DNA of 64,000 nt from Candidatus Aenigmatarchaeota archaeon (GTDB taxonomy: Archaea; Aenigmatarchaeota; Aenigmatarchaeia; PWEA01; JACQIF01): positions 576,001 to 640,000 of the forward strand of contig CP066684.1 in assembly GCA_016432325.1 (NCBI GenBank), given 5' to 3'. The translations under genes were made by a program, and so were the position numbers. A model generated the notes under the pieces. That model did not search any database and was not told the DNA's origin. It saw only the letters and a list, made by a program, of their open reading frames with translations. Numbering within the stretch: the first letter of the stretch is position 1; each line of letters opens with the position of its first letter. Below, one piece after another: positions 4,700 to 63,369 of the stretch.

Positions 4700-5254
4700 G
4701 TGCGTTATGTGCTCATGGAATACAATGGCATACTTCTGTCGGGCCTTCCGTCTTCTGGCAAGAGCACTCTTGTTAAGCTACTCAACGAGCGCACGGGCTG
4801 GAACGTCCACTCGATAGGCGACCTCTGGAGAGAGAAGCACGCGAAAGAGGCGCCAGACGTCGCGTTCAGCGAATGGTGGCCGCGACAGCCTCTCGAAGCC
4901 CAGTTCGAGGTCAATCGGCACCTGCGAGAGTTGGCCGAACGGCAGAGCGTCATCGCAGACACGAGATTCGCGCCTCCTCTCGACGGATTGCCGCTGCTCA
5001 AAGTCTTCCTGACGGCGGAAGTAGACGTTCGCGCGGAGCGTGCCGTCGCGCAGAGAAGGTACGCGACGTTCGAAGATGCAAAGGCAGACCTTCTCCTGAG
5101 AGAGGCAAGCGAAGTGGATATTGGAAAAACCATGTTCGGCGCGGACTTCGACTATAGGAAGCCGGAGCATTATCACACGGCATTAAATACGGGCCTGCTC
5201 ACACCGAAGCAGGAAATCGTGTCCGTGATGGCGCTGTTGGGGGAGAAAACGTGA
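4700..5254 (+). CDS. cmk: cytidylate kinase-like P-loop kinase
   Basis: SGLPSSGKST; LKVFLTA...RAER; adjacent to pyr genes. Confidence 0.75.
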   Translation: MRYVLMEYNGILLSGLPSSGKSTLVKLLNERTGWNVHSIGDLWREKHAKEAPDVAFSEWWPRQPLEAQFEVNRHLRELAERQSVIADTRFAPPLDGLPLLKVFLTAEVDVRAERAVAQRRYATFEDAKADLLLREASEVDIGKTMFGADFDYRKPEHYHTALNTGLLTPKQEIVSVMALLGEKT

Positions 5255-5757
5255 AGGGAAACATCGCGATAATAGGCGTTGCCGTGGTCCTTCTGACTGC
5301 CGGAGCGTTCTTCGTTACGCAGAACAGGCCGGACACGCAAGCGATGCCTGAAACGATGGAGGGCTTGCACTGGCACCCCACGCTCGCAATCTTCATCAAC
5401 GACGAACCCTATCCCGTTCCGGCTGGCGTAGGCATCACGCTGGGAAACAACGTAGACAACGACGTGAGCGGCATGCGCATGTCTCCGATACACACGCACG
5501 ACGCGAGCGGCGTGCTGCACATGGAACAACCGTATCCGCGCGAGGATACGGTCACTCTCGGTTACTTTTTCAAGGTCTGGGGCGCGCGCTTCGACGAAAC
5601 GTGCGTCATAGACTGGTGTAATGACGGGACGCGCGACGTCAAGATGTTCGTTAACGGCGAACGCAACTACGAATTCGGTTCGTACAGAATGCAGGACGGG
5701 GATGAGATAGAAATACGGTATGACGAGGGGGATTCGATGAATCCGCAGCTCACGTAA
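5251..5757 (+). CDS. membrane-anchored His-motif protein
   Basis: HWHP, PIHTHDASGVLHME, TLGYFF; paralog of 834..1403. Confidence 0.75.
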   Translation: MKGNIAIIGVAVVLLTAGAFFVTQNRPDTQAMPETMEGLHWHPTLAIFINDEPYPVPAGVGITLGNNVDNDVSGMRMSPIHTHDASGVLHMEQPYPREDTVTLGYFFKVWGARFDETCVIDWCNDGTRDVKMFVNGERNYEFGSYRMQDGDEIEIRYDEGDSMNPQLT

Positions 5758-6436
5758 CCACTCTGACGTCCACGGCCCACGCGCCTTTCTTCGAGACGAC
5801 CAGAGGGTTGAGGTCGAGTTCGCGCACGTTCTCGCGCATTCCGATTGCTGAAACGGCCTTGATTGCCTGTCTTATTGCTTTCATGTCGACGCGCTCTGAG
5901 CCGCGAGCGCCTGCAAGAATCGGATAGCCCTTTATCTCTTTTACCATTTCGTCTGCGTCTTTGTCGCTCACCGGGCAGACGCGGAACGTGACGTCCTTCA
6001 TGATCTCGACGAAGACTCCTCCGAGACCGAACGCTACTACAGGACCGAACTGCGGGTCGCGCTTCAGGCCGACGAGAACGTACGTACCTTCAACCTGCTC
6101 CTGGACGAGCGCTCCCCTGAACGTGAAACGCCGCTTGCGGCAAATCGTCCAGAACTTCTCGAAGGCTTTGTGCGCGTCCGCCTCGGAGCGCACGTCCATC
6201 ACGACCCCGCCGACGTCGCTCTTGTGCACGACATCAGGCGAAACGAGCTTCATGACCACGGGATATTTGTAGCGGCCCAGAACGCGCGACAGTTCCACGG
6301 GCGTGCGGGCGATGCCGTAGCGCGGCGTGCGTATGCGATATTTCTTTGCGAGCACCTGCGAGTCTTCAAAGGTTAGAACCTTTGAAGGGCCGGAAACCAG
6401 AGGTTTCCGTGCATCTTCGAAAGACAGAACTGCCAT
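5750..6436 (-). CDS. acdB: ADP-forming acetate--CoA ligase, beta (ATP-grasp) subunit
   Basis: YPVVMKLVSPDVVHKSDVGGV, DPQFGPVVAFGLGG, ELDLNPL. Confidence 0.9.
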   Translation of the reverse strand: MAVLSFEDARKPLVSGPSKVLTFEDSQVLAKKYRIRTPRYGIARTPVELSRVLGRYKYPVVMKLVSPDVVHKSDVGGVVMDVRSEADAHKAFEKFWTICRKRRFTFRGALVQEQVEGTYVLVGLKRDPQFGPVVAFGLGGVFVEIMKDVTFRVCPVSDKDADEMVKEIKGYPILAGARGSERVDMKAIRQAIKAVSAIGMRENVRELDLNPLVVSKKGAWAVDVRVVT

Positions 6437-6672
6437 AGACAGAAATGGCCAAGTCTGGTAAATAAAGAAGTGGTGCCCGTGGAGGGTTCAATCCCGCCAA
6501 GCAGCGGACAACCGATTTCAGAAGTCGTATATAGATTGGCGGCCTTCTATTTAAGCTTTTCTGCTATTACGACTGCGGTGCATGCAACTGCGGTTTCAAA
6601 CCGCGGTTTACCACACTTACCACCGCGGTGGTCGAAAAAGCTTGACCTTCCAGATTCCAATATAATCGACGC

Positions 6673-6757
6673 GGTGGGGTCGCCAAGTCAGGTGATGGCG
6701 CCGATTTCAGAAGTCGGTACCCGAAAGGGTTCATGGGTTCAAATCCCATCCCCACCG
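6673..6757 (+). tRNA. type II tRNA, anticodon CAG (Leu codon) with Ser-like body
   Basis: GGTGGGG/CCCCACC acceptor, GCC/GGC D-stem, CCGAT-TTCAGAA-GTCGG, long variable arm, ATGGG-TTCAAAT-CCCAT, G73. Confidence 0.8.
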
Positions 6758-6758
6758 C

Positions 6759-7262
6759 CTATAATCTTCTCTCGAAGAACTGCTTCATCTCCTTCCTCGT
6801 CCACCATGCAAAACCGTCAGGCGGATTCTTTGGTGAGAACGCGACGACCTCGGCAACGCGGTTGCCGTGCGTGCCGGCCTTGGGCATCTTTCTCAGGTCC
6901 GCGATAACGTATCCGAGCAGAGCCCAGTGGTCATCCTTCTTCTGCCAGAAGGATTCGAAGTTCACGATGCGCCAGCTCCTGACGCCGACGCCTGCCTGCT
7001 CGCGGACGACGCGGTTTACGAAAACGTCCATCGATTCTCCTTTGCGAATCAGGTTGTGGCAGAAGAAGAGCATTCCTTTTGGATGGTCCTCTGCGCCCGG
7101 CGGCCTTTCGTGACCCGGGATCGACTGGCGCCTGAACGCGACGGCTCTGCCGTGATAGGTCGGAATGATTTCAAAGGTCAGGTGGGCGCCGCCCTTGACC
7201 TGCGTGCGCATAGGTCTTCCAAAATTCGCTTCGTTGTGTTTCCAAGAATAGCGGAAGGGCAT
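6759..7262 (-). CDS. NUDIX-fold-like hypothetical protein
   Basis: degenerate Nudix box KGESMDVFVNRVVREQAGV. Confidence 0.55.
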   Translation of the reverse strand: MPFRYSWKHNEANFGRPMRTQVKGGAHLTFEIIPTYHGRAVAFRRQSIPGHERPPGAEDHPKGMLFFCHNLIRKGESMDVFVNRVVREQAGVGVRSWRIVNFESFWQKKDDHWALLGYVIADLRKMPKAGTHGNRVAEVVAFSPKNPPDGFAWWTRKEMKQFFERRL

Positions 7263-44435: not shown

Positions 44436-44677
44436 GCTGGGGTAGCAAAGCTTGGTATGCGCCTTTTTGGGCATCTCGGAATGGAACATTCCGAGTTTTC
44501 GGACGCGGTCCGAAAACGTCCGCCCAAAAACCCGCGGGAAAAATACGCTCCCGCAAGCGACCAACTGCGCCGGATTGCTAATCCGGTGGGCGCAAGCCCG
44601 CGCGAGTTCAAGCGCCTTTTTGCTGCGGCAAAAACCCGCGGGAAAAACGGCACGAACGAATCTCGTCCCCAGCGCCA
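44436..44677 (+). tRNA. tRNA-Ser(GCT) with two BHB introns (D-loop 44459-44565; T-loop 58/59 44612-44659)
   Basis: GCTGGGG/CCCCAGC-G-CCA; CCGGA-TTGCTAA-TCCGG; BHB helices TGGT/ACCA and GTTC/GAAC. Confidence 0.9.
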
Positions 44678-53853: not shown

Positions 53854-54093
53854 GCGGGGGTTCCGTAGCTTGGTCAATCCCTGAACGGCATTCAAATTTC
53901 CGTTCCGGGAACGAAAAACGGGGGGGACTTAAGTTTGCCGACTTAAGTGCTGAGACACGACGTCTGTGAAAAGAAATCCCCTGGCCTAGCGCCTTCGCAG
54001 GTTCAAACCGGGCTTTCTTTAAAAAGAAAGCACGGGTGCAAAGAAACTCCGGCTTCCGCCATGATGCCGGCGAGAATCCTGCCCCCCGCACCA
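53854..54093 (+). tRNA. tRNA-Leu(TAA) with three BHB introns (D-loop 53877-53916; 37/38 53934-53975; 59/60 54008-54076)
   Basis: GCGGGGG/CCCCCGC-A-CCA; spliced GGGGA-CTTAAGA-TCCCC; Leu variable arm; GCAGG-TTCAAAT-CCTGC. Confidence 0.85.
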
Positions 54094-60813: not shown

Positions 60814-61549
60814 AATTTCAAGACTAAAGTTTTGAAATAAAACTGACTCTGCAAGGGTCAGTGTTCACCGCACTTACCATAACGCAAGTTGTGGTAGGGC
60901 TTGGAAAGAAAGTTTCGAGATTTTCTGGTAAACAGAAAACTTGAAAACGGATTTTCAAGACAATTCCAATAGAAAGTGTGCAGTTAACTCCCAATCGAAG
61001 TTCTCGTACTGTTGATGAAATATCGTAGGACCTACTTTGAGACAGAGCGTTGTTAGGGATAACAGACGCTGGGAACATACGTTCGATTGAAATAATTCTG
61101 GTTGATCCCGCCAGAGGTCACTGCTATCTGGATCCGATTAAGACATGCTAGCCGAGTGCGAAAGCACGGCAGACGGCTCAGTAACACGTAGTCAACCTGC
61201 CCTCAGGTAGGGGATAACCCCGCGAAAGTGGGACTAACACCCTATGGGGAAAAGATACTGGAATGTTCTTTTCCTGAAAGGCAACGCCTGAGGATGGGAC
61301 TGCGGCGGATTAGGCTGTTGTTGGGGTAAAGGCCCAACAAACCTATAATCCGTACGGGCGTTGAGAGACGTAGCCCGGAGATGGGCTCTGAGACAAGAGC
61401 CCAGGCCCTACGGGGCGCAGCAGTCGCGAAACCTTTACAATGGCTTCACGGCCGATAGGGGGATCCAGAGTGAGTGCGCAATGCGTACTCTTTTGCCGAG
61501 TCTAAACAGCTCGGAGAATAAGGGGTGGGCAATACGAGTGCCAGCCGCC

Positions 61550-61593
61550 ATCTTGCGTAGGACGGAAACTTTTCCGCCCTTGCGGGACGGAAA
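61550..61593 (+). other. 16S intron at 526/527 (44 nt)
   Basis: interrupts GCCAGCCGCC|ACGGTAA; hairpin with relaxed BHB GCCG/CGGA. Confidence 0.8.
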
Positions 61594-61626
61594 ACGGTAA
61601 TACTCGAGCCCCGAGTGGTGACCACG

Positions 61627-61657
<31 letters not shown>

Positions 61658-61978
61658 GGACAAGTTCCTAGTGAAATCCTGCGTTAAACGCGGGGCGTGC
61701 TGGGAAGACTGTCCGGCTTGGGACCGGGAGACGTTAGCAGTACTCCAGGGGTAAGGGTAAAATCTTATCATCCTTGGAGGACTACCTGTGGCGAAGGCGG
61801 CTAACGAGAACGGCTCCGACGGTGAGGGACGAAAGCGTGGGGAGCAAATGGGATTAGATACCCCAGTAGTCCACGCTGTAAACGATGCCCCCTTGATGTC
61901 GCGTCTTCTTCGGGAAGACGCGGTGTCGTAGAGTAGTTGTTAAGGGGGCCGCCTGGGGAGTACGGCCGCAAGGTTGAA

Positions 61979-62021
61979 ACTCAGCAGAACGTTCGTTCTG
62001 AACGTTCGTTGCGAGCAACGA
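61979..62021 (+). other. 16S intron at 908/909 (43 nt)
   Basis: canonical BHB GTTG-AA|A ... CAAC-GA|A. Confidence 0.9.
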
Positions 62022-62340
62022 ACTTAAGGGAATTGGCGGGGGAGCACTTCAAGGGGTGGAGGCTGCGGTTCAATTGGATTCAACGCCAGACATTTTACCA
62101 GGGGTGACAGCAGGATGAAGGTCAGTCTGAAGGGCTTACCTGACGCGCTGAGAGGAGTTGCATGGCCATCGTCAGCTCGTACCGTGAGGCGTGCGCTTAA
62201 GTGCGTTAACGAGCGAGACCCACGCCCTCTGTTGCTATCTTGTCCTCCGGGATGAGAGCACTCTGAGGGGACCGCCGGCGATAAGTCGGAGGAAGGAGTG
62301 GGCGACGGTAGGTCCGTATGGCCCGAATCTCCTGGGCTAC

Positions 62341-62862
62341 ACCGAGTCCAGGCTAGCGAGGAAGAGCAAATGTTTTGGAACGAAAGTTTCAGGATACGTT
62401 GAACCGTTTTTGATTGTGCTAACGGCATGCTACTTACGAAAGTAATAGTATATCCGTCACGCACAAACCTTTACATGAACCCTGATTTAGCATATCTGAT
62501 AGGTCTCATCGGAGGCGACGGTTCGCTGACTTACAAGAAAGGAAGCGAATACCGTGTCTCAGTCGTTGACGAGTGCTTGGAATTTCATGAGCACGTCGTC
62601 AAACCTACAATGGATGCGACTTTCAACAAAGCCGCGTACGAATATCCGCGCGTCGCTCTGCAGGTTGCAAACAGTGGTATCAGAAACGAATTGGTCGAAC
62701 TTCTGAAGAGGTTTGGCATCGCACCGAGCGTTTGGAAGTACAAGCAAATGTTCGGTTTGCAAATAATCGGTTTCGATAAGGTTAGGCTGTATTCAGAGAA
62801 TGTCGGTTTTCGGCATCCCTCGAAACAGAAACGGTTGCTCGAGCTGCTTGGCTTGGGGCCTA
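62341..62862 (+). mobile_element. 16S intron at 1226/1227 (522 nt) carrying a homing endonuclease ORF
   Basis: BHB GGCT-AC|A ... GGCC-TA|A; splicing restores GGGCTACACGCGG. Confidence 0.9.
62475..62862 (+). CDS. LAGLIDADG homing endonuclease, probably degenerate; no stop inside the linear intron
   Basis: LAYLIGLIGGDGSL motif; LLKRFGI; GFRHPSKQKRL; second LAGLIDADG helix not seen. Confidence 0.8.
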
Positions 62863-63116
62863 ACGCGGCCTACAATGACCCGGACAAAGAGTTGCCACGC
62901 CGAAAGGCGGAGCCAATCTCTAAACCGGGCCTTAGTTCGGATTGAGGGTTGAAACTCACCCTCATGAAGCCGGAATCCCTAGTAAGCGGGTGTCACTATC
63001 ACTCGCTGAATACGACCCTGCTCCTTGCACACACCGCCCGTCAAGCCATGCGAGTGTTCCCTTGATGAGGCTTGGGTTATTGCCCAGGACGAATCGAGGG
63101 GACGCGAGCGGGGCTA

Positions 63117-63224
63117 ATCTCAAGGAGTTCATCTCAGAACAAGATGATTAAACTGGCTTGACTCTGACAAAATATGAGGAGTCTTGGAGGTGGAATGATT
63201 GCTTGAGAGCTCCTGGGAGCCTAG
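63117..63224 (+). other. 16S intron between A1492 and A1493 (108 nt)
   Basis: BHB GGGC-TA|A ... GCCT-AG|A; splicing restores GGGCTAAGTCGTAAC. Confidence 0.88.
63144..63198 (+). ncRNA. putative intron-encoded box C/D guide RNA
   Basis: C ATGATTA, D' CTGA, C' ATGAGGA, D ATGA; D' guide TGGCTTGAC complementary to 16S 63040-63048. Confidence 0.65.
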
Positions 63225-63369
63225 AGTCGTAACAAGGTAGCCCTACGGGAACGTGGGGCTGGATCACCTCCTATATCTTTTCTCTGTCGTTACAGACGGA
63301 GATTGGATTATAACCGGTGTACAAGCGCCAACAATTCGCATACTGCCAGTCGAGTAGTTTTTTATCGAA

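What the first reader, a model, noticed from the sequence alone, without database searches (positions are those of the whole stretch)
6673..6757. tRNA with serine-type identity elements but a leucine CAG anticodon
Seen in sequence: the anticodon loop is TT-CAG-AA. The discriminator is G73, position 37 is A, and the variable arm is T-ACCC-GAAA-GGGT-T-C. The whole body parallels this genome's tRNA-Ser(GCT) (G.TGGGG, TT-NNN-AA, 4-bp arm with GNRA loop, G73), not its tRNA-Leu (A73, G37, CTAGC loop). Established knowledge: archaeal LeuRS needs A73 and variable-arm determinants, SerRS ignores the anticodon, and Ser-CAG tRNAs underlie CUG recoding in yeasts. CTG still encodes conserved Leu here (ALDH H-L-ELGGK, MCM I-L-LVGDP), so full reassignment is unlikely. 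Inference: a mistranslating or ambiguous CUG decoder, or a repurposed tRNA.
Basis: partly seen in the sequence, partly recalled or inferred. Interest (0 to 1): 0.7.

Follow-up and report, generated by a model that had tools for sequence, protein, structure and literature searches.

The report
Serine-type tRNA reading leucine codon
A tiny groundwater archaeon keeps an extra, well-folded tRNA built like a serine tRNA but carrying the anticodon for its commonest leucine codon; the genetic code itself is unchanged, so this looks like a deliberately restrained mistranslating tRNA, a kind I found described only in yeasts and bacteria.

Summary
Window 6673-6757 is a sound 85-nt class II tRNA with anticodon CAG, A37, G73 and variable arm U-ACCC-GAAA-GGGU-U-C.

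My census found four tRNA-Ser genes (all G73, A37, 4-bp+GNRA arm) and four tRNA-Leu genes (all A73, G37, 3-bp+YUAGY arm). The query sits on the Ser side: +37 bits in a Ser-versus-Leu profile.

It belongs to a family of five genes found only in this Aenigmarchaeota genus: one here, and four in the sister MAG JACQIF01 (CAG and three GAG). Fifteen of 24 stem pairs show compensatory changes and none is broken, so the family is under selection.

The code is standard. 3,291 CTG codons align to Leu (50.6%) and not Ser (1.2%), exactly like CTC, and CTG is the commonest Leu codon (37%). Canonical Leu decoders of CUG, one SerRS, one full-length LeuRS and a CCA-adding enzyme are all present.

Each complete unit carries an upstream copy of its own anticodon arm beside a promoter-like box. 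This is consistent with a cognate antisense RNA.

Best reading (about 0.5): a serylated CUG decoder kept in check, either toxin-antitoxin-like or a conditional mistranslator. Charging and expression are untested.

The scan noted this same stretch in an overlapping window; that follow-up was withheld. A sequence look-up with the sister MAG's CAG gene (its closest counterpart) found no note on other DNA.

The parts
6673..6757 (+). Hybrid class II tRNA: anticodon CAG (36-38 of the gene), A37, G73, 4-bp + GAAA variable arm, 7/5 cloverleaf, no intron
   Evidence: family covariation
6758..6761 (+). 3' trailer CCTA. CCA is not encoded, unlike the other tRNA genes examined. The stop codon (TAG on the minus strand) of the NUDIX-like ORF 6759-7262 overlaps it.
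   Evidence: an archaeal CCA-adding enzyme is present in the genome
6512..6527 (+). Exact 16-nt same-strand copy of tRNA positions 29-44 (anticodon stem and loop). Read on the minus strand it is a perfect antisense seed.
   Evidence: longer than in all 500 shuffles; cross-matches to other units' tRNAs are 10 nt or less
6467..6533 (-). Candidate small antisense RNA. Its 5' ~20 nt are predicted unpaired and complementary to the tRNA anticodon arm. It also holds diverged copies of the D-arm and variable-arm regions and ends in a GC hairpin plus CACCA(U/C)-rich tail. Ends are inferred, not mapped.
6543..6556 (.). TATA-like box (TTCTATTTAAGC) conserved in all four complete units. A purine-rich BRE-like tract lies on the minus-strand side. 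Orientation is not proven.
6576..6651 (+). Dispersed palindromic hairpin repeat (ACNGCGGT motifs, CCACCGCGGTGG) between the TATA-like box and the tRNA. It has copies elsewhere in the genome and is not specific to this tRNA.
   Evidence: 89% over 76 nt at genome 467590; 32-35-nt copies at 225516, 321135 and 559079, 97-100% identical
6633..6646 (+). Conserved CGAAAAAGCTTGAC motif about 30-40 nt upstream of the tRNA in all four complete units; the likely tRNA promoter region
   Evidence: inference
44436..44674 (+). Canonical tRNA-Ser(GCU), two introns, used for comparison
53854..54090 (+). Canonical tRNA-Leu(UAA), three introns, used for comparison

Best explanation
This is a real, selected, extra tRNA that combines the serine identity set with the leucine anticodon CAG. 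The serine features are discriminator G73, a Ser-type long variable arm and A37; SerRS does not read the anticodon. The organism's single SerRS is predicted to charge it with serine. G73 and the absence of the conserved Leu variable-loop motif should keep LeuRS off it. On the ribosome it would then put Ser at CUG, the commonest leucine codon. The genetic code remains standard and canonical Leu-tRNAs for CUG are kept. The tRNA therefore cannot be a normal, freely active decoder. Most likely its activity is gated by the divergently encoded small RNA, whose 5' end is complementary to the tRNA's own anticodon arm. That would make the pair an RNA-only toxin-antitoxin-like or conditional-mistranslation module that has multiplied and moved within one Aenigmarchaeota genus.

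Shown: the sequence features, the family, covariation, the standard code, the enzyme inventory and the cognate upstream copies.

Inferred: serylation, transcription of the antisense RNA, toxicity and gating.
For: Identity features are read directly and compared with all 4 Ser and 4 Leu genes of the genome. The Ser-versus-Leu profile gives +37.4 bits; leave-one-out Ser tRNAs score +29 to +74 and Leu tRNAs -31 to -61. The best matches in class relatives are tRNA-Ser GCU/GGA at 72-73% identity.

In 301 genomes of the class, the Ser-type arm next to the anticodon arm carries only Ser anticodons outside this genus (an apparent UGU case proved to be an intron).

Five family members share G73, A37 and a 4-bp GNRA arm. 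Of 24 stem pairs, 15 are compensatory and 0 are broken.

Published work reviewed in PMC9976931 reports that G73 is a strong SerRS determinant in archaea, that G73 is an antideterminant for H. volcanii LeuRS, and that serine identity is anticodon-independent.

CTG means Leu: 3,291 codons align 50.6% to Leu and 1.2% to Ser, the same as CTC, and CTG makes up 37% of Leu codons. There is one SerRS, one full-length archaeal LeuRS and a CCA-adding enzyme. Canonical Leu GAG and UAG/CAG genes are kept in both species.

Each of four complete units holds an upstream copy of its own anticodon arm: 16, 13, 11 and 12 nt exact, above all 500 shuffles, with cross-matches of 10 nt or less. In the C10 unit the three mismatches that extend the match are all G-U-compatible in an antisense duplex. 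A shared TATA-like box and a 3' hairpin are present. The C10 unit's flanking genes lie directly adjacent, without a unit, in this genome, and the Pfam-annotated flanking genes of the other units differ from those here.
Against: There are no expression, charging or proteomic data. The query lacks the weaker Ser determinant G30:C40 (it has A30:U40). Three of the five family members have Leu-like GCGG acceptor stems. The orientation of the TATA-like box is not established, and the upstream copies could be remnants of duplication kept similar by gene conversion. Whole-length duplex energies are not clearly cognate-specific (z = -3.2 for this unit, -1.2 for the C10 unit). No defence, toxin or mobile-element genes flank the units. 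The family is known from only two genomes.
Confidence: 0.5

Rival explanations
1. It is an unusual but genuine tRNA-Leu isoacceptor. LeuRS of this genus tolerates G73 and a Ser-type arm, and these mostly intronless genes simply add capacity for the most used Leu codons in a genome where almost every other tRNA needs splicing.
For: The anticodons (CAG, GAG) match the two commonest Leu codons. Three of five members have Leu-like GCGG acceptor stems, and one has a Leu(GAG)-like D-arm. The query is the only intronless class II tRNA gene in this genome.
Against: All canonical Leu tRNAs of this genome and the sampled relatives keep A73, G37 and the YUAGY loop on a 3-bp arm. That argues that LeuRS, which is full length including its C-terminal domain, still uses them. 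G73 is an antideterminant for archaeal LeuRS (PMC9976931). This reading gives no reason for all three Leu features to be switched to the Ser state in five diverged paralogues, nor for a cognate antisense element.
Confidence: 0.17
2. CUG decoding is constitutively ambiguous, as in the yeast Ascoidea asiatica. Ser- and Leu-tRNAs with the same anticodon compete all the time, giving a statistical proteome.
For: A Ser-type tRNA(CAG) with A37 coexists with a canonical Leu decoder. This is the CUG-Ser2 arrangement described in PMC11415595 and PMC6041473.
Against: CUG is the commonest Leu codon. It is as frequent at conserved Leu positions as CTC (66.0% versus 66.3% Leu in conserved context; Ser 0.5%), so there is no sign of avoidance. 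The antisense-matched element suggests restraint rather than free competition.
Confidence: 0.08
3. The tRNA has a non-translational role. It could be a decoy or target mimic for an anticodon nuclease, a partner in an RNA-RNA regulatory pair that controls neighbouring genes, or a structural part of a small mobile element.
For: The units sit at different loci in the two species and vary in copy number, 1 versus at least 4. In this genome the candidate antisense RNA would run into the start of the adjacent ATP-grasp (acetate-CoA ligase-like) gene. A dispersed hairpin repeat lies inside the unit.
Against: Strict conservation of the full cloverleaf, G73, N-A-G anticodons and A37 across five diverged copies is what a charged, decoding tRNA needs. 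A decoy would not need a preserved Ser-type arm plus G73. The flanking genes differ between units, so a role in regulating one neighbour is unlikely.
Confidence: 0.15
4. It is a pseudogene, an assembly error or a chance tRNA-like sequence.
For: It is the only tRNA gene examined in this genome without an encoded CCA.
Against: Its Rfam score is high. All 24 stem pairs are intact. Five paralogues in two independently assembled genomes show 15 compensatory pairs and none broken. A CCA-adding enzyme is present. The missing CCA is explained by the overlapping stop codon of the downstream ORF.
Confidence: 0.02

Closest known systems
tRNA-Ser(CAG) of CUG-Ser2 yeasts (Ascoidea, Saccharomycopsis), described in PMC6041473 and PMC11415595
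   Same: A serine-type body with the leucine anticodon CAG and A37 rather than m1G37. It coexists with a canonical tRNA-Leu(CAG). It works because SerRS ignores the anticodon. A route from an NGA Ser anticodon by insertion of an A (NGA to NAG-A) would fit here too and would also explain the GAG members; that route is my recollection of the yeast literature and was not checked here.
   Different: This case is in the Archaea. The proteome shows no shift or avoidance of CUG. The family also carries GAG anticodons, is multi-copy in one species, and each complete unit has a cognate antisense-matched element.
Bacterial allo-tRNAs (Mukai et al., PMC5389517)
   Same: Serine-identity tRNAs with non-serine anticodons, including Leu CUA/CUG. 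They are patchily distributed.
   Different: Allo-tRNAs have 8/4 or 9/3 acceptor/T-stem geometry. This tRNA is a standard 7/5 cloverleaf. Allo-tRNAs were described from bacteria and no antisense partner is mentioned.
tRNAProX/ProRSx of Streptomyces and nematode nev-tRNAs (PMC11415595, PMC3333845)
   Same: Natural tRNAs whose body identity and anticodon disagree, and which are kept by selection.
   Different: Those cases involve different amino acids and domains of life. tRNAProX comes with a dedicated synthetase, and no extra SerRS or LeuRS exists here.
RNA-only toxin-antitoxin pairs (type I hok/sok logic; type VIII SdsR/RyeA, CreTA)
   Same: A potentially harmful RNA gene sits next to a divergent small RNA with extended complementarity to it. 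The units are multi-copy, lineage-restricted and non-syntenic.
   Different: I found no described system in which the toxin is a mis-identity tRNA. Toxicity, RNA stabilities and transcription are untested here.

Membership tests
tRNA (Rfam RF00005), class II | Cloverleaf with 7-bp acceptor stem and 5-bp T stem, conserved U8, G18G19 and T-loop; score above the gathering threshold; long variable arm | tested here: met
   54.8 bits against 29; cloverleaf fold z = -4.8; 15-nt variable region with a 4-bp stem
Archaeal tRNA-Ser identity set | Discriminator G73 | tested here: met
   G at 6757. All 4 Ser genes have G73 and all Leu genes have A73. Role as a determinant is from PMC9976931.
Archaeal tRNA-Ser identity set | Long variable arm of Ser-type size and architecture (U, 4-bp stem, GNRA loop, one nucleotide, C) | tested here: met
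   The architecture is identical to the genome's Ser genes. Across 301 genomes of the class, this arm pairs only with Ser anticodons outside the genus.
Archaeal tRNA-Ser identity set | G30:C40 pair (the weaker determinant) | tested here: not met
   The query has A30:U40. The four canonical Ser genes and three of the four sister-species members have G:C.
Archaeal tRNA-Ser identity set | Charged with serine by SerRS | not testable with these tools
   One full-length SerRS gene is present. An aminoacylation assay is needed.
Archaeal tRNA-Leu | A73, G37, and a 3-bp variable stem with a YUAGY loop followed by UU-C | tested here: not met
   The query has G73, A37 and a 4-bp stem with a GAAA loop. 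All Leu genes of G000, G001 and G037 have the Leu set. The ARAGORN-spliced G037 Leu(UAA) reads A at position 37, probably a splice-boundary artefact.
Archaeal tRNA-Leu | Leucine anticodon | tested here: met
   CAG
CUG-to-Ser codon reassignment (yeast type) | CUG codons occupy serine positions in conserved proteins, and CUG is avoided at conserved Leu positions | tested here: not met
   3,291 CTG codons aligned with the codon masked against an order-level relative: 50.6% Leu and 1.2% Ser. In conserved context: 66.0% Leu and 0.5% Ser, the same as CTC.
Allo-tRNA | 8/4 or 9/3 acceptor/T-stem geometry | tested here: not met
   7/5 in all five members. Two extra leader-trailer pairs are possible only in the precursor.
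RNA toxin-antitoxin pair | Adjacent antisense RNA gene with specific complementarity to the putative toxin RNA | tested here: inconclusive
   Cognate copies of 11-16 nt occur in 4 of 4 complete units, above all shuffles, next to a conserved TATA-like box. Transcription and strand are not shown.
RNA toxin-antitoxin pair | Toxicity of the tRNA and neutralisation by the small RNA | not testable with these tools
   Needs expression experiments

The most novel reading that the evidence does not exclude
The tRNA and its divergent small RNA form an RNA-only toxin-antitoxin or abortive-infection module. The toxin is a stable, mostly intron-free, serine-charged tRNA that misreads the commonest leucine codons. 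The antitoxin is a labile antisense RNA that traps the tRNA's anticodon arm. The module copies itself and moves within a DPANN genus.
Probability: 0.3. Interest if true: 0.9.

Novelty: new variant of a known kind. Interest (0 to 1): 0.78.

Why it matters
Natural tRNAs whose body and anticodon disagree are known from yeasts, a few bacteria and nematodes. I found none described in Archaea.

This one targets about 37% of all leucine codons in an organism whose code is demonstrably standard. The cell must therefore either silence it or use it only under special conditions. That makes it a direct test case for how cells tolerate, or exploit, encoded mistranslation.

If the matched antisense RNA is its keeper, this would be the first toxin-antitoxin-like pair in which the toxin is a tRNA.

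It also warns annotators: tRNA callers label this gene tRNA-Leu from its anticodon alone.

Tried and rejected
1. Standard tRNA finders for a census. ARAGORN and Rfam find only about 12 tRNAs in the 875-kb genome because nearly all genes are multiply interrupted. I replaced them with motif scans and hand splicing by coordinates.

2. Broad D-arm and variable-arm regexes were far too permissive.

I redid it from coordinates.

4. The whole-length RNAduplex of the candidate antisense RNA against the tRNAs was not clearly cognate-specific (z = -3.2 and -1.2). I rely on exact-match statistics instead.

5. MAFFT misaligned one family member, so covariation was counted on a structure-guided alignment built from coordinates.

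6. The metagenome scan with a tight pattern gave no match. A loose pattern gave 29, all of which were A73 tRNA-Leu genes, tmRNA-like ends or non-tRNAs.

7. An apparent Ser-type tRNA with a UGU anticodon in genome G206 is a normal Ser(GCU) with a 37/38 intron.

8. Pfam, NCBIfam and PADLOC scans of neighbouring genes gave no defence or mobile-element signal.

9. Rfam at a permissive threshold found no other RNA family in 6300-6800.

10. Box C/D guide and hammerhead readings of the upstream element were considered and dropped. No conserved C/D boxes are present, and CUGAUGA occurs in only one copy (reading).

11. Infernal isotype models were not built, because too few intronless Leu references could be given by reference. 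A column log-odds profile was used instead.

Full report
**1. Observation**

Window 6673-6757 (+) reads as a complete class II tRNA:

- acceptor GGUGGGG/CCCCACC
- U8-C9
- D-arm GCC-AAGUCAGGUGAU-GGC
- G26
- anticodon stem CCGAU/GUCGG
- anticodon loop UU-CAG-AA
- variable region U-ACCC-GAAA-GGGU-U-C
- T-arm AUGGG-UUCAAAU-CCCAU
- discriminator G

ARAGORN calls it tRNA-Leu(cag). Rfam tRNA scores 54.8 bits against a gathering score of 29. It folds as a cloverleaf with z = -4.8.

**2. Genome setting**

The window lies in a single 874,869-bp contig of a small archaeon. Its sister genome is recorded as a Candidatus Aenigmatarchaeota groundwater MAG, JACQIF01.

Standard finders see only about a dozen tRNAs, because almost every gene is interrupted, often several times. 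The query is the only intronless class II tRNA gene. It is also the only tRNA gene examined that does not encode CCA. The stop codon of the downstream NUDIX-like ORF overlaps the CC-T trailer. An archaeal CCA-adding enzyme is present, so the missing CCA is not a defect.

**3. Census of class II tRNAs**

I used motif scans and spliced the genes by coordinates. Splice boundaries inside the D- and T-loops are approximate.

| Isotype | Genes | Shared features |
|---|---|---|
| Ser | GGA, UGA, CGA, GCU | G73, A37, G30:C40, acceptor GCUG(G/A)GG, identical arm U-GGGC-GCAA-GCCC-G-C |
| Leu | GAG, CAA, UAA, and one gene with two alternative anticodon micro-exons (UAG and CAG) | A73, G37, G3:C70, arm U-NNC-YUAGY-GNN-UU-C |

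The query has the Ser state at positions 73, 37, 3:70 and the variable arm. It differs from both sets at 2:71, at position 9 and at 30:40 (A:U).

**4. Ser or Leu?**

- The query's best matches in 40 relatives are tRNA-Ser(GCU/GGA) genes of another family, at 72-73% identity.
- I built a column log-odds profile from 10 Ser and 6 Leu tRNAs with the anticodon excluded. Leave-one-out scores are +29 to +74 bits for Ser and -31 to -61 for Leu. The query scores +37.4.
- A pattern search was run over 301 genomes of the class. A 4-bp + GNRA arm placed directly between an anticodon arm with A37-A38 and a T-arm goes only with Ser anticodons, except in this genus. One apparent exception was an intron artefact.
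- According to the review PMC9976931, G73 is a strong determinant for archaeal SerRS, and G73 in H. volcanii tRNA-Ser blocks LeuRS. The same review states that serine identity rests on the variable arm and ignores the anticodon.
- The genome has one SerRS and one full-length archaeal LeuRS, with no extra paralogue.

Serylation is therefore the expected outcome. It has not been shown.

**5. A family, not a single oddity**

The sister MAG (G001) carries four full genes of the same kind:

| G001 contig | Anticodon | Intron |
|---|---|---|
| C10 | CAG | none |
| C8 | GAG | none |
| C33 | GAG | 13-nt T-loop intron |
| C21 | GAG | 41-nt T-loop intron |

There is also a rearranged remnant on C23.

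All five genes share G73, the N-A-G anticodon, A37 and a 4-bp GNRA arm. They are only 65-70% identical to one another. Of the 24 cloverleaf pairs, 8 are invariant, 1 varies on one side, 15 show compensatory changes and none is broken in any copy. This is the signature of functional tRNAs.

Acceptor stems vary. Two are Ser-like (U3:A70) and three are Leu-like (GCGG...). The constant features are exactly the major Ser determinants.

The tight-pattern scan of one genome per species of GTDB matched only the two intronless G001 genes (the window's own genome may be left out of that scan). No G73 member turned up in JGI metagenome contigs.

**6. The code is standard**

I masked each codon in turn as X. 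I then aligned 359 conserved ORFs to 800 kb of an order-level relative, G019.

| Codon | n | Aligned to Leu | Aligned to Ser |
|---|---|---|---|
| CTG, all positions | 3,291 | 50.6% | 1.2% |
| CTG, conserved context | 968 | 66.0% | 0.5% |
| CTC, all positions | 3,071 | 51.8% | 1.6% |
| CTC, conserved context | 946 | 66.3% | 0.2% |

Ser codons align to Ser as expected. CTG is the commonest Leu codon (37%) and CTC is second (35%).

Canonical Leu(GAG) and Leu(UAG/CAG) genes are kept in both species. The hybrid tRNAs are therefore supernumerary. They target the most used Leu codons, which is the worst choice for harmless ambiguity.

**7. The partner element**

About 150 nt upstream on the same strand lies an exact 16-nt copy of tRNA positions 29-44. 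Weaker copies of the D-arm and variable-arm regions lie nearby.

All four units with upstream sequence available have such a copy of their own anticodon arm. The exact matches are 16, 13, 11 and 12 nt, each above all 500 shuffles. Cross-matches between units are 10 nt or less. In the C10 unit, the three mismatches that extend the match to 21 nt are all G-U-compatible in an antisense duplex.

The copies lie 20-25 nt from a conserved TATA-like box with a purine-rich tract on its minus-strand side. A minus-strand RNA would start with an unpaired anti-anticodon-arm seed. It would end in a GC hairpin followed by CACCA and a U/C-rich tail.

Transcription, strand and ends remain inferred. In this genome the same RNA would run towards the start codon of the adjacent ATP-grasp gene. 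In G001 the flanking genes are different: RNase HII, SecD/F and RtcB-archease. In this genome the RNase HII gene and the homologue of its G001 neighbour are directly adjacent, with no unit between them. The stretch between the box and the tRNA is a dispersed hairpin repeat.

**8. Reading**

The most economical account is a serine-accepting decoder of CUG that is normally restrained by a cognate antisense RNA. This could be a toxin-antitoxin-like or conditional-mistranslation module.

I put about 0.5 on this as a whole. Component estimates:

| Step | Probability |
|---|---|
| The tRNA is functional | about 0.95 |
| It is charged with Ser rather than Leu | about 0.75 |
| The antisense RNA gates it | about 0.6 |
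| It serves an addiction or defence role | about 0.3 |

The rivals are an odd tRNA-Leu, constitutive ambiguity, a non-translational role and a pseudogene. They are weighed in their own sections.

**9. Known relatives and novelty**

The nearest analogues are:

- the A37-bearing tRNA-Ser(CAG) of CUG-Ser2 yeasts, which also coexists with tRNA-Leu(CAG)
- bacterial allo-tRNAs with Leu anticodons
- tRNAProX and nev-tRNAs

A 2024 review of natural mistranslating tRNAs mentions Archaea only in generic statements. My searches found no archaeal case and no tRNA-as-toxin pair.

I class this as a new variant of a known kind, with a plausible route to something categorically new.

Noticed in passing
L018:1495-1500, L019:335-340, L020:1495-1500, L017:1586-1591 (minus strand); window 6667-6672: All four sister-species hybrid tRNA genes are preceded by GGT, which can pair (with one G-U) with G73-C74-C75. 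This would extend the precursor acceptor helix to 10 bp and hide the discriminator. The query has GC, giving two extra pairs. The canonical Ser and Leu genes whose flanks I read (three) lack this.
   Followed up: partly
L011:640-885 (minus strand; G001 contig C23): A rearranged unit lies directly after the stop codon of the archease gene of an RtcB-archease (tRNA ligase) operon. The conserved upstream-element hairpin is fused to a tRNA 3' half with a CC-CAG-AA loop, a TGGC-GCAAA-GCCA arm, A73 and CCA. It may be a decayed or recombined family member.
   Followed up: partly
window 6576-6651: Palindrome-rich repeat (ACNGCGGT motifs, CCACCGCGGTGG) with copies at genome 467590 (76 nt, 89%) and at 225516, 321135 and 559079 (32-35 nt, 97-100%). 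The CCACCGCGGTGGTCG part resembles the tRNA's own 3' and 5' ends, yet it is conserved upstream of sister-species tRNAs that have different acceptor stems.
   Followed up: partly
window 5251-5757 (+): A 168-aa ORF without Pfam, NCBIfam or PADLOC hits is 29% identical (E = 9e-9) to the C-terminal part of the unannotated 390-aa protein that flanks the G001 C10 unit. The true orthologue of that protein lies elsewhere (genome 498704-499351). A link to the tRNA units is possible but unproven.
   Followed up: partly
window 6705:6713 (tRNA positions 31:39) and the family alignment: A U31-G39 wobble closes the anticodon stem in four of the five hybrid tRNAs (C:G in the fifth). The canonical Ser genes have A:U or U:A there. 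This could tune decoding strength.
   Followed up: no
genome 30081-29821 (minus strand; outside the window) and L127: The tRNA-Leu gene with two alternative 8-nt anticodon micro-exons (GCTTAGGT and GCTCAGGT) is present in this genome. The sister species has the same gene with GCTTAGG and GCTCAGGT. My reading places positions 31-38 in the micro-exon.
   Followed up: partly
window 61095-63272: The 16S rRNA gene spans 2,178 nt against a 1,478-position model, with at least one 45-nt and several larger insertions. These are rRNA introns.
   Followed up: no
genome 339614-339700 (outside the window): ARAGORN's tRNA-Asp(atc) call looks like protein-coding sequence, does not reach Rfam's tRNA model at E <= 1, and is probably a false positive.
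   Followed up: no
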